Below are positions 23,261-24,235 of a DNA stretch of 35,409 bases, in pieces (within the stretch, counting starts at the first letter, position 1; every line of letters starts with the position of its first letter). Both the position numbers and the translations under genes were made by a program. The notes under the pieces were generated by a model. The model saw nothing but the letters and a program-made list of their open reading frames with translations, was not told where the DNA came from and did not search any database. The stretch is taken from positions 1 through 35,409 of the forward strand of contig JALOQH010000001.1 in the NCBI GenBank assembly GCA_025453475.1, read 5' to 3'. Origin of the DNA: an archaeon (GTDB lineage: Archaea; Nanobdellota; Nanobdellia; Pacearchaeales; GW2011-AR1).

Positions 23261-24235
23261 ATGAAGAGAGTGATGGTTTGCCTCCTTGCACTAACAGCTA
23301 TACTCTTAACTATGGGTTTTGCTGGTGCAAGCGCAGAGTGCAATAATCCTGAGCAGATAATTTTAAGATTGAGTGCTGAAAGTAACGCGCACGCTTCCCT
23401 TTGGGATAGTGAAGATTATGTGGTGAAAGTATGCTACGACAGGTATTTTGATATTTATGATGACGAAGTAGATGAGGAAGCACATGCGTGCGGTTTCGGC
23501 GGGGGGAACAGATTATTCTATCTTTCAGGCACGAACAATGCGCACGCTTCAATAGATGGAAATGACAATTATCCGATAGAAGTGTGCCATGACGGGGTTT
23601 CTGGATGCGAACTGGTCGATAATACCGGGCAGAACACTTGCCAGAATATTGACAAGAAACCGATAGTGTTTCTTTCTGCAGAGACAAATGCCCATCTTTC
23701 GAGAAGATATGATTCCAATTACCCATTTGTAGTTTGCTGCAAGGGAATAGGCACACCGTCCACGCCAACTGACCCGACTATCTGCGCGCATTATTCTGAC
23801 AGCTTGGTGTATCCTTCTTATTACGGCAGAGAAAACTGCACAGAAGACCCACTAAATCTTTCCGTAGATGATCCTCTGTGCCCTCTCGGAGAGAAAACAT
23901 GCAGATGCATATGGACAAATAACAGATGCTCGCTGATTTATAACAGCACTTCGCCCAGCGGCTGCCAGTATACCTGCTCCAAGAATGTTGCAGATTACGA
24001 TTCTGCAAGCTGTAATGAGGGTTTCAAGAATGTGACTGTAGAAGCAGTAATTAACCCCATTGGATGCTCTATAGGGCCTGATGAACTCATAGAAGGATGC
24101 GAGGGCACGACTACACTTATTCCCTGCAGTTTCGGGCTTGCTGAACTGCCTTTCTTCGGAATCTGGCAGTTCATGGCGGCAATAACTGCAATTGCGTTTG
24201 TTTATGTGATGTTTTACAGGAAAAAGGCGGATTAG
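23261..24235 (+). CDS. Cys-rich, C-terminally TM-anchored surface protein with three 'LS-x3-NAH-x-S ... Y-x3-VC' repeats
   Basis: The signal peptide is MKRVMVCLLALTAILLTMGFAGASA. There are three about 27-aa repeats and roughly 25 Cys residues. The C-terminal TM helix is FGIWQFMAAITAIAFVYVMFY, followed by RKKAD. Confidence 0.8.
   Translation: MKRVMVCLLALTAILLTMGFAGASAECNNPEQIILRLSAESNAHASLWDSEDYVVKVCYDRYFDIYDDEVDEEAHACGFGGGNRLFYLSGTNNAHASIDGNDNYPIEVCHDGVSGCELVDNTGQNTCQNIDKKPIVFLSAETNAHLSRRYDSNYPFVVCCKGIGTPSTPTDPTICAHYSDSLVYPSYYGRENCTEDPLNLSVDDPLCPLGEKTCRCIWTNNRCSLIYNSTSPSGCQYTCSKNVADYDSASCNEGFKNVTVEAVINPIGCSIGPDELIEGCEGTTTLIPCSFGLAELPFFGIWQFMAAITAIAFVYVMFYRKKAD
23357..23740 (+). repeat. three protein-level repeats (23357..23437, 23510..23590, 23660..23740)
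   Basis: The repeats are IILRLSAESNAHASLWDSEDYVVKVCY, RLFYLSGTNNAHASIDGNDNYPIEVCH and PIVFLSAETNAHLSRRYDSNYPFVVCC. The NAH codons were verified at 23384, 23537 and 23687. Confidence 0.75.

What the first reader, a model, noticed from the sequence alone, without database searches (positions are those of the whole stretch)
23357..23740. Undescribed triple 'hhLSxxxNAHxS-x6-Y-x3-VC' repeat in a Cys-rich anchored surface protein
Three about 27-aa repeats share an invariant core, L-S-x3-N-A-H-x-S followed by Y-P/V-x-x-V-C. They are separated by acidic or Cys-containing linkers. A further Cys-dense region (about 15 Cys) follows, then a C-terminal TM anchor. I cannot assign the repeat to any family I know. 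The invariant His and the flanking Cys suggest metal or ligand binding, or a disulfide-locked beta-repeat. This could be an adhesin tip or lectin-like module associated with the pilus locus.
Basis: seen in the sequence. Interest (0 to 1): 0.6.

Follow-up and report, generated by a model that had tools for sequence, protein, structure and literature searches.

The report
Unnamed three-repeat surface domain of Nanoarchaeota
The three 'NAH' repeats are real and form one compact, disulfide-stapled domain at the outer end of a membrane-anchored surface protein of a tiny DPANN archaeon; about a third of sampled related genomes carry the domain, no domain or structure library searched matches it, and it is most likely a binding module whose ligand is unknown.

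Summary
Observation confirmed. The ORF at 23261-24235 (+) encodes a 324-aa protein. The motif L-S-x3-N-A-H-x-S-x6-Y-x3-V-C occurs exactly three times, at aa 37-58, 88-109 and 138-159. Profile comparisons between the repeats give P of 1e-14 to 1e-18.

The repeats are not loose. They form one ~130-aa domain, which I call 'NAH3', made of three disulfide-closed ~32-aa units. The copy number is always three.

The domain is a mobile module. An exhaustive search found 708 protein clusters. It occurs in 134 of 401 sampled genomes (106 of 281 genera) of the same phylum. Every named carrier is Nanoarchaeota, Woesearchaeota or Pacearchaeota. It usually follows a Sec signal peptide directly. A variable stalk often follows it (PKD or Ig domains, 0-559 aa), then a Cys-rich domain and an 'LPFFGxWQ' membrane anchor.

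Pfam, NCBIfam and PDB sequence searches find nothing. The AlphaFold2 model is confident (pLDDT 92.7), yet Foldseek finds no neighbour in PDB or BFVD (TM at most 0.22).

In the window's family the gene is a positional orthologue. It lies between a type-IV-pilus gene block and a ~900-aa surface protein followed by GTPase-OapB-OapC.

The protein is not a pilin or pilus tip; it has its own anchor. Best reading: a conserved scaffold displaying three hypervariable loops for binding. The ligand is unknown, and metal or sugar binding by the His is untested.

The parts
23261..24235 (+). Gene for the 324-aa NAH3 surface protein (P0001). Its layout is signal peptide, NAH3 domain, Cys-rich C-domain, then membrane anchor.
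   Evidence: The ORF is open. Full-length orthologues reach E = 4e-134. It is single-copy in the 550-kb genome.
23261..23335 (+). Sec-type signal peptide, aa 1-25: MKRVMVCLLALTAILLTMGFAGASA|E. It is not a class III (pilin) signal.
   Evidence: Read from the sequence. AlphaFold2 models a helix at aa 2-18. In most homologues the domain begins right after this segment.
23336..23743 (+). NAH3 domain (aa 26-161): three disulfide-closed repeat units forming one compact, beta-rich domain.
   Evidence: The domain HMM matches at 23336-23743 with E = 5e-40. The AlphaFold2 model has pLDDT 92.7 and pTM 0.86. Foldseek finds no neighbour in PDB or BFVD.
23339..23434 (+). Repeat unit 1 (C27...IILRLSAESNAHASLWDSEDYVVKVC58).
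   Evidence: Motif match. C27 and C58 are lost together across homologues (p = 0.002).
23489..23587 (+). Repeat unit 2 (C77...RLFYLSGTNNAHASIDGNDNYPIEVC109).
   Evidence: Motif match. C77 and C109 are lost together across homologues (p = 2e-9).
23639..23740 (+). Repeat unit 3 (C127...PIVFLSAETNAHLSRRYDSNYPFVVC159-C160). C160 probably pairs with C116 in the hairpin of linker 2.
   Evidence: Motif match. C127 and C159 are lost together across homologues (p = 7e-10). The C116-C160 pairing is inferred by elimination only.
23768..24130 (+). Second conserved module: a Cys-rich C-terminal domain (aa ~170-290; 12 Cys, 4 N-x-S/T sequons).
   Evidence: Eleven of the 12 Cys are invariant or nearly invariant in 30 orthologues (only C175 is not listed). 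It is present in 71 of 156 NAH3 proteins. AlphaFold2 models it as mostly beta, with block-mean pLDDT of 76-94. Foldseek finds no PDB neighbour.
24146..24232 (+). Juxtamembrane motif LPFFGIWQ, a transmembrane helix and a basic tail (RKKAD): the C-terminal anchor.
   Evidence: The motif is invariant or nearly invariant in orthologues. An anchor HMM hits 109 of 156 family members. AlphaFold2 models a helix at aa 301-323.
24271..27000 (+). Conserved downstream partner gene. It encodes a 909-aa surface protein with a weak PKD-like hit, a C-terminal TM helix and a cytoplasmic tail of about 130 aa.
   Evidence: A homologue lies downstream of the NAH3 gene in 14 of 15 evaluable loci, 13 of them from the window's own family, and a protein of about 900 aa holds that place in L060-L062; in a few of these loci 1-3 kb or another gene lies between the two. 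The PKD_4 hit is weak.
22091..23211 (+). Two upstream pilin-like genes (234 and 140 aa). Their N-termini are KKG|LSNIEF... and KKG|WLRIVEA...
   Evidence: Sequences. They are syntenic in relatives.
15863..21252 (+). Type-IV-pilus-like block: three pilin-like genes, a T2SSE-type ATPase and two T2SSF platform proteins.
   Evidence: Pfam hits to Pilin_N, T2SSE and T2SSF. T2SSE/T2SSF genes lie within 10 kb of the NAH3 gene in 11 of 16 loci: 10 of the 15 same-family loci plus the named Woesearchaeota locus L031.

Best explanation
The three repeats are the three sub-units of a single, previously undescribed extracellular domain ('NAH3', about 130 aa) that so far has been seen only in Nanoarchaeota-type DPANN archaea.

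Each unit is a beta-hairpin-like element: strand 'hhxLS', then a long connection, then strand 'xxhC'. A disulfide at its base closes each unit. The T-N-A-H turn and the Tyr are the structural keystones of each unit. The 8-14 residues between NAH and Tyr form a hypervariable loop.

Three such units pack into a closed pseudo-threefold scaffold that presents three variable loops. After Sec export and signal-peptide cleavage the domain is the N-terminal, membrane-distal end of a type-I anchored protein. The order is NAH3, an optional PKD/Ig stalk, a Cys-rich domain, and the LPFFGxWQ-TM anchor.

Its most likely job is to bind a partner: a host or neighbour cell-envelope component, or another surface protein such as the co-encoded ~900-aa protein.

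Shown here: existence of the domain, its boundaries, the triplication, the disulfide pattern, the export and anchor topology, the phyletic spread, the synteny, and the lack of known relatives. Inferred: the hairpin geometry, the structural role of NAH and Tyr, and the binding function.
For: - Exact triple motif.
- Repeat-versus-repeat hhalign gives P = 4e-18 to 7e-14.
- Copy number is always three. The strict motif occurs three times in 117 of 157 hits, and divergent class-level members also carry three NAH units in every case but one (L058), where the second unit reads DAH. There is one domain hit per protein, except P0061, which has two whole domains.
- Cys co-loss pairs each unit's first and last Cys.
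- N and H are 98-99% conserved in every unit, whereas the loop columns between NAH and Y have the highest entropy.
- The AlphaFold2 model of the domain has pLDDT 92.7 and pTM 0.86, with the same strand pattern in each unit.
- The domain follows a signal peptide directly in most of 154 homologues, but is internal, C-terminal or duplicated in others, so it behaves as a mobile module.
- Partner domains are extracellular stalk types: PKD in 28 of 74 members, plus Big_7, fn3 and Laminin_G_3.
- The insert between NAH3 and the C-domain varies from 0 to 559 aa.
- The gene is a positional orthologue of very variable length (324-1711 aa) in a conserved locus next to type-IV-pilus genes.
- 708 protein clusters carry it, as do 134 of 401 genomes of the phylum.
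Against: - No ligand, partner or phenotype is known for any member.
Whether the N, H and Y side chains are buried (structural) or exposed (a site) is therefore not established.
- Simultaneous near-invariance of all three His would also fit one shared metal site.
- The gene is single-copy, widely conserved and sits beside housekeeping genes, which would also suit a structural envelope protein.
- The AlphaFold2 model is a prediction, and 'no fold neighbour' rests on Foldseek against PDB and BFVD only.
Confidence: 0.55

Rival explanations
1. The domain is a lectin with three equivalent sugar pockets. In this reading the invariant Asn, His and Tyr of each unit are themselves the carbohydrate-binding residues. 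This would parallel the repeated QxDxNxVxY sites of beta-prism II lectins or the QxW repeats of beta-trefoil lectins, and would give a trivalent glycan-binding head.
For: - The repeat is three-fold with polar, H-bonding invariant residues (N, H, Y) in each unit.
- The domain is extracellular and membrane-distal, and stalk domains accompany it.
- One family member also carries a Laminin_G_3 / ConA-like lectin domain.
Against: - There is no sequence match to any lectin family in Pfam.
- The model has no beta-trefoil or beta-prism neighbour. The beta-trefoils that appear in the list have TM of about 0.18 and E > 3.
- In multi-site lectins, individual sites commonly decay. Here all three N/H pairs are 98-99% conserved across very divergent proteins, which fits structural keystones better.
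- Invariant sites would not explain the hypervariable adjacent loops.
Confidence: 0.17
2. The domain is a metal-binding module. In this reading the three invariant His (H44, H95, H145), possibly with the Asn, converge on the pseudo-threefold axis and coordinate one Zn, Ni, Cu or Fe ion. The ion would either stabilise the fold or serve sensing or redox chemistry.
For: - All three His are 98-99% conserved at the same time, as expected if all are needed for one site.
- N and H are spaced i and i+2 in an extended segment, so they face the same side (DSSP pattern).
- The rare replacements are Q, N, D, E or Y, which could also act as ligands.
Against: - There is no match to any known metal-binding family.
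- The domain is already stapled by four disulfides, so a structural metal is less needed.
- The geometry could not be inspected.
- A fourth conserved His (H75, in the 'PHxC' motif) is often replaced by R, Q or T in the wider family (sequences).
Confidence: 0.12
3. The protein is a structural envelope or machinery component rather than an adhesin. It might form a membrane-anchored stalk or lattice element together with the neighbouring ~900-aa protein, in the way SlaB anchors SlaA, or serve as an accessory of the pilus machinery. NAH3 would then be a protein-protein assembly domain.
For: - The gene is single-copy.
- It holds a conserved position immediately upstream of the ~900-aa protein in 14 of 15 evaluable loci, and lies next to GTPase-OapB-OapC housekeeping genes.
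- Ten of the 15 same-family loci, and the named Woesearchaeota locus L031, have pilus ATPase or platform genes within 10 kb.
Against: - Positional orthologues range from 324 to 1711 aa with different inserted domains. That plasticity is typical of adhesins or receptor-binding proteins, not of lattice or machinery parts.
- Many family members outside this family lie in unrelated contexts (L047-L051).
- 10 of 27 same-family genomes lack the domain.
Confidence: 0.14

Closest known systems
Three-fold internally repeated lectin domains (beta-trefoil / ricin-B-type CBM13; beta-prism II 'bulb lectin')
   Same: The domain is about 130 aa and built from three sequence repeats of about 45 aa, each with a short polar signature motif. 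It is extracellular and often sits at the end of modular surface proteins.
   Different: There is no Pfam hit. Foldseek finds no similarity, with TM at most 0.2. The signature is T-N-A-H...Y...C rather than QxW or QxDxNxVxY. Each unit is closed by its own disulfide. No sugar binding has been shown.
Modular PKD/Ig-stalk surface adhesins of archaea and bacteria
   Same: The architecture is signal peptide, distal head domain, variable number of PKD/Ig-like stalk domains, then membrane anchor. Length varies strongly between orthologues.
   Different: The head domain (NAH3), the Cys-rich membrane-proximal domain and the LPFFGxWQ anchor motif are all unannotated. The member in this window has no stalk at all (324 aa).
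Archaeal type IV pilus (TFF) loci with accessory surface proteins, e.g. the Epd pili of Methanococcus
   Same: The gene lies in a conserved cluster with a T2SSE-type ATPase, two T2SSF platform proteins and five pilin-like genes.
   Different: The NAH3 protein has a Sec signal and its own C-terminal TM anchor, so it is not a pilin or pilin-like subunit. In some genomes housekeeping genes (archease, RtcB) separate it from the pilus genes.
Archaeosortase / exosortase C-terminal sorting signals (PGF-CTERM, PEF-CTERM and similar)
   Same: The C-terminus has a short conserved motif (LPFFGxWQ), a TM helix and a basic tail.
   Different: The 80%-complete genome has no Exosortase_EpsH-family gene. No other protein in the genome carries the motif. 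No NCBIfam CTERM model hits.

Membership tests
Beta-trefoil lectins (ricin-B / CBM13) | Sequence match to the family profiles (QxW repeats) | tested here: not met
   Pfam hmmscan gives no hit for the whole protein at E <= 0.1 or for the domain alone at E <= 10.
Beta-trefoil lectins (ricin-B / CBM13) | Beta-trefoil fold (12 strands, three-fold) | tested here: not met
   Foldseek of the pLDDT-92.7 model against PDB gives a best E of 1.3. The beta-trefoil entries that appear (3aj6, 2mib, 3qyd) have TMq of 0.17-0.18.
Beta-prism II (B_lectin) mannose-binding lectins | QxDxNxVxY motif, profile match and beta-prism fold | tested here: not met
   There is no Pfam hit and no structural neighbour.
Archaeal type IV pilins / pilin-like proteins | Class III signal peptide (K/R-G followed by a hydrophobic helix retained in the mature protein) | tested here: not met
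   The N-terminus is a Sec-type signal with an A-S-A|E cleavage site. There is no Pilin_N hit, whereas the neighbouring genes at 15863 and 16323 do hit Pilin_N.
Archaeosortase substrates (PGF-CTERM and related) | A cognate archaeosortase gene in the genome and several substrates sharing the signal | tested here: not met
   PF09721 is absent from the 80%-complete own genome, while the control genome rings. The motif occurs in only this one protein of the genome. Genome incompleteness leaves some doubt.
Pam pilus proteins of CPR bacteria (NCBIfam CPR_pilus_* models) | Match to the PamA/B/E/R/T profiles; Ig-like pilin fold with donor-strand exchange (PMC13278184) | tested here: not met
   NCBIfam gives no hit for P0001. 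Only P0011 has a sub-threshold PamR hit (17.7 bits against a cut-off of 300), and it lies outside its NAH3 region.
NAH3 domain family (defined here) | Three consecutive units of C-x(3-9)-h-h-x-h-S-x3-N-[AS]-H-x(8-14)-Y-x3-h-C in about 130 aa | tested here: met
   Met in the window protein, in 154 domain copies in 153 of the 157 proteins in hand, and in 134 of 401 phylum genomes.

The most novel reading that the evidence does not exclude
NAH3 is a new protein fold specific to DPANN archaea that works as a three-loop display scaffold: a conserved disulfide-stapled core presenting three hypervariable loops. It would be the host- or partner-recognition head of a rapidly diversifying surface protein encoded beside the type-IV-pilus genes, and therefore a determinant of which cells these ultrasmall archaea attach to. 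An untested lead from an earlier scan note raises a further possibility: a related [ST][ST]NAH repeat in secreted proteins of CPR bacteria would make it a module shared between the two ultrasmall episymbiont radiations.
Probability: 0.25. Interest if true: 0.8.

Novelty: new variant of a known kind. Interest (0 to 1): 0.55.

Why it matters
DPANN archaea are thought to live attached to other cells, but for Woesearchaeota- and Pacearchaeota-type lineages almost nothing is known about the molecules that make contact.

This work defines a widespread, easily recognisable and so far unannotated extracellular domain. It gives the domain's boundaries, its disulfide map and a confident model. The domain sits at the exposed end of a fast-evolving surface protein in a conserved pilus-adjacent locus.

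That gives experimenters a small, expressible target (about 140 aa) for structure determination and ligand screening. It gives annotators a new family to add to domain databases. If the fold is truly new, it also adds to the catalogue of three-fold repeat architectures.

Tried and rejected
- **Known domain family.** Pfam was searched with the whole protein, the domain alone and two consensus-like homologues, up to E = 10. NCBIfam was searched too. No search hit the repeat domain; the C-terminal fragment drew two chance-level Pfam hits (E about 0.2).
- **Solved relatives by sequence.** I searched the PDB with phmmer, a domain profile and a single-unit profile. There were either no hits or only chance hits at E >= 0.65 to a Hia adhesin segment.
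- **Known fold.** Foldseek was run on the domain model against PDB and BFVD, and on the full-length model against PDB. No hit had E < 0.1, and TM was at most 0.22.
- **Open repeat array with variable copy number.** Partial and overlapping HMM hits in distant genomes suggested this. Inspection showed three units each time, the middle one degenerate (DAH) in one locus, so the idea was rejected.
- **Lipoprotein.** The Cys just after the signal peptide might suggest a lipobox. I rejected this because that Cys co-varies with C58, is absent in about 20% of members, and also precedes internal copies of the domain.
- **Archaeosortase-type sorting.** No sortase gene and no second substrate exist in the genome.
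- **Presence in viruses.** One scan of IMG/VR with two peptide patterns found nothing, at low sensitivity.
- **Bacterial carriers.** The bacterial proteins returned by the profile search are PKD-only and lack NAH3.
- **Searches that failed or added little.** The search for related loci with the broad domain alignment failed for lack of a conserved 7-mer. The region-restricted word search added only one new protein.
- **Literature.** Searches found no description of the motif. The CPR Pam pilus paper (PMC13278184) concerns Ig-like donor-strand pilins, not this domain.
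Full report
**1. The observation**

The + strand ORF 23261..24235 encodes a 324-aa protein, P0001. The matches are aa 37-58, 88-109 and 138-159, which correspond to nt 23369-23434, 23522-23587 and 23672-23737. All lie inside the reported interval.

I cut the three repeat regions out of a 56-sequence family alignment and compared them profile to profile. They match each other with P = 4e-18, 7e-14 and 9e-15. The repeat is therefore real and far beyond chance.

Some details need correction. The period is about 50 aa, not 27. 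The 'x-S' after NAH is peculiar to this protein. There are 12 Cys downstream of the repeats, not about 15.

**2. What the repeat is: one closed three-unit domain**

Full-length orthologues exist down to 30% identity (alignment). An exhaustive HMMER scan of 1.84 billion cluster representatives found 708 proteins at E <= 1e-3 and 312 at E <= 1e-10.

In almost all of the 157 proteins in hand, the similarity is carried by residues 26-162. An HMM of that stretch finds one complete copy per protein. P0061 is the exception, with two tandem copies.

The copy usually begins about 20-30 residues from the N-terminus, directly behind a signal peptide. In about 20 proteins it is internal, and in P0011 it is C-terminal. 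It therefore behaves as an autonomous, mobile domain. I call it NAH3.

The motif always comes in threes. A strict motif count gives three in 117 of 157 proteins, and most of the rest have one or more degenerate copies. Partial and overlapping HMM hits in distant genomes had suggested longer arrays. On inspection each of those loci has three units, though in one the middle unit reads DAH.

Conservation across 154 domain copies:
- N is conserved at 98-99% and H at 98-99% in every unit.
- The Tyr is conserved at 87-91%.
- The closing Cys is conserved at 94-96%.

(All.)

Presence and absence of Cys co-vary in a simple pattern. C77 pairs with C109 (Fisher p = 2e-9), C127 with C159 (p = 7e-10), and the N-terminal Cys (C27) with C58 (p = 0.002). 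Each unit is thus a loop of about 32 residues closed by its own disulfide. The unit reads C-x(3-9)-h-h-x-h-S-x3-N-[AS]-H-x(8-14)-Y-x3-h-C. By elimination, the fourth pair is C116-C160.

Column entropies show a conserved scaffold: the 'IhRLS' strand, T-N-A-H, Y and hC. The stretch between NAH and Y is the most variable part and also varies in length.

**3. Structure**

AlphaFold2 with the 56-sequence domain alignment gives a confident model, with mean pLDDT 92.7, pTM 0.86 and no segment below 50. The same strand pattern recurs in each unit: a 5-residue strand, a short bridge at N-A-H, then a 4-residue strand ending in the Cys. There is an extra hairpin in linker 2.

Foldseek finds no neighbour:
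- Against PDB the best E is 1.3 and TM is at most 0.2.
- Against BFVD the best E is 0.67 and TM is at most 0.22.

The beta-trefoils that turn up have TM of about 0.18, which is noise. Sequence profiles of the domain and of the single unit find nothing significant in the PDB. Pfam and NCBIfam have no hit, even at E = 10 for the isolated domain.

The full-length model (pLDDT 83.5) adds four elements: a signal-peptide helix, a second mostly-beta Cys-rich domain (aa ~170-290), a low-confidence hinge, and a TM helix at 301-323. It also has no PDB neighbour.

**4. The protein and its architecture**

The N-terminus, MKRVMVCLLALTAILLTMGFAGASA|E, is a Sec-type signal, not a class III pilin signal. The C-terminus has LPFFGIWQ, a hydrophobic helix and RKKAD. 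This makes a type-I topology with NAH3 as the outermost part.

Among 156 NAH3 proteins:
- 109 carry the same anchor by HMM, and others carry degenerate versions;
- 71 carry the C-terminal Cys domain;
- the insert between NAH3 and the C-domain ranges from 0 to 559 aa.

Partner domains in 74 longer members are of the extracellular stalk type: PKD_4 in 28, PKD in 18, plus Big_7, fn3 and Laminin_G_3. A minority end in a different C-terminal domain that has no TM helix.

The anchor motif resembles exosortase/archaeosortase signals. However, the genome has no PF09721 gene, and no other protein in it has the motif.

**5. Organism and spread**

The window is one contig of a 550-kb, 68-contig, 80%-complete genome with 42% GC. 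NAH3 is single-copy there.

In an even sample of 401 genomes of the same phylum, all of one class and 0.5-2 Mb in size, 134 genomes and 106 of 281 genera carry it. That includes 17 of 27 genomes of the window's family.

Every carrier that has a name is labelled Nanoarchaeota, Candidatus Pacearchaeota, Candidatus Woesearchaeota or 'archaeon', and always as a hypothetical protein. The bacterial proteins returned by a whole-protein profile search are PKD-only and lack NAH3. One low-sensitivity scan of viral contigs was negative.

**6. Genomic context**

The window carries the following, in order:
- three pilin-like genes (15863-17400), two of which have the archaeal KRG|(I/V)SPVIATV signal and weak Pilin_N hits;
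- a T2SSE ATPase (17440-18966);
- two T2SSF platform genes (19155-21252);
- an FmrO-like methyltransferase on the opposite strand;
- two further pilin-like genes (22091-23211);
- the NAH3 gene;
- a 909-aa surface protein (24271-27000);
- then GTPase, OapB, OapC and the CCA-adding enzyme.

I ran tblastn of these proteins against 20-kb regions around the NAH3 gene in 15 same-family genomes, plus one named Woesearchaeota contig. The same order appears. The ~900-aa protein follows NAH3 in 14 of 15 evaluable loci. T2SSE/T2SSF genes lie within 10 kb in 11 of 16 loci. Three further loci, which come with precomputed Pfam annotation, show the same arrangement.

In two of those three loci, housekeeping genes (archease, RtcB) separate the pilus block from the NAH3 gene. 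The positional orthologue ranges from 324 to 1711 aa. Distant class-level carriers show no such synteny (L047-L051).

The tightest linkage is therefore with the ~900-aa protein. The link to the pilus genes is real but looser.

**7. Interpretation**

Taken together, the evidence gives this picture:
- exact triplication, with one disulfide per unit;
- invariant N, H, Y and C beside hypervariable loops;
- a membrane-distal position with stalk-type partner domains;
- extreme length plasticity of the positional orthologue.

This fits best a binding head built as a conserved scaffold that displays three variable loops. In that reading T-N-A-H and Tyr act as structural keystones. I give it about 0.55.

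Concerted invariance of all three His is what a single tri-His site would predict. Polar N/H/Y triads are what sugar sites look like. Neither could be tested without coordinates or experiments.

A structural or assembly role with the neighbouring 909-aa protein or the pilus machinery is a further rival (about 0.14).

'Pilus tip adhesin' is unlikely, because the protein has a Sec signal and its own anchor.

**8. Comparison with the known, and novelty**

The domain works like the head of modular PKD-stalk adhesins, and it superficially resembles three-fold repeat lectins. It fails every membership test that I could run for beta-trefoil lectins, beta-prism II lectins, type IV pilins, archaeosortase substrates and CPR Pam pilus proteins.

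It is an unannotated domain family with a confidently predicted fold that has no detected neighbour. I rate it a new variant of a known kind (extracellular repeat-built binding modules of surface proteins), not a new kind of system, because no new mechanism has been demonstrated.

Earlier scan notes report the same module or locus in other genomes (e1-3677751, e1-2801313) and the pilus locus in this genome (e1-3677333). They also report '[ST][ST]NAH tandem repeats' in secreted proteins of CPR bacteria (e1-827436). I could not test that last lead here. If the CPR repeats prove homologous, the interest would rise.

Noticed in passing
window 24271-27000 (+): A 909-aa protein with an N-terminal signal or anchor, a weak PKD_4 hit, a C-terminal TM helix and a cytoplasmic tail of about 130 aa. 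A homologue lies downstream of the NAH3 gene in 14 of 15 evaluable related loci, so the two look like a functional pair. It has no family assignment.
   Followed up: partly
window 27036-30019 (+): A housekeeping block runs GTPase (MMR_HSR1), OapB, OapC (origin-associated proteins) and the CCA-adding enzyme. It always follows the surface-protein pair in relatives, which suggests the locus lies near the replication origin.
   Followed up: partly
window 21245-22012 (-): An FmrO-like rRNA methyltransferase gene sits on the opposite strand, embedded between the T2SSF platform genes and the pilin-like genes. It keeps this position in several relatives (L031, L033, L038, L039, L060).
   Followed up: partly
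window 15863-17400 and 22091-23211 (+): The locus has two kinds of pilin-like N-termini. The first is the archaeal KRG|(I/V)SPVIATV type (15863 and 16323; weak Pilin_N hits). The second is a KKG|...E... type with a Glu at +5/+6 that recalls bacterial type IV pilins (16873, 22091, 22789).
   Followed up: no
window 24146-24232 (+) and homologues: The juxtamembrane motif LPFFGxWQ, with a TM helix and basic tail, is conserved in at least 109 of 156 NAH3 proteins. It looks like a sorting signal. However, the genome has no exosortase/archaeosortase gene, and no other protein in it shares the motif.
   Followed up: partly
window 9944-11794 (+): Another secreted Cys-rich protein (616 aa, 28 Cys, signal peptide) has no Pfam hit. 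The genome also encodes large Cys-rich proteins of 1166 aa and 1809 aa on other contigs (C14, C62).
   Followed up: no
P0041, P0057, P0069, P0075, P0095 and others (homologues): A subset of NAH3 proteins lacks the TM anchor. They end instead in a different conserved C-terminal segment (for example ...GDNSASLxVEh or ...HWANLxVGYExY), which suggests a second, non-anchored mode of attachment or release.
   Followed up: no
P0061 (837 aa, Nanoarchaeota MAG): This protein carries two complete NAH3 domains in tandem (aa 179-314 and 323-465). The whole three-unit domain, not the single unit, is therefore the unit of duplication.
   Followed up: partly
window 23310-23768 (-) and 23549-23791 (-): Antisense ORFs of 152 and 80 aa overlap the NAH3 region. 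They have no support and are almost certainly spurious.
   Followed up: no
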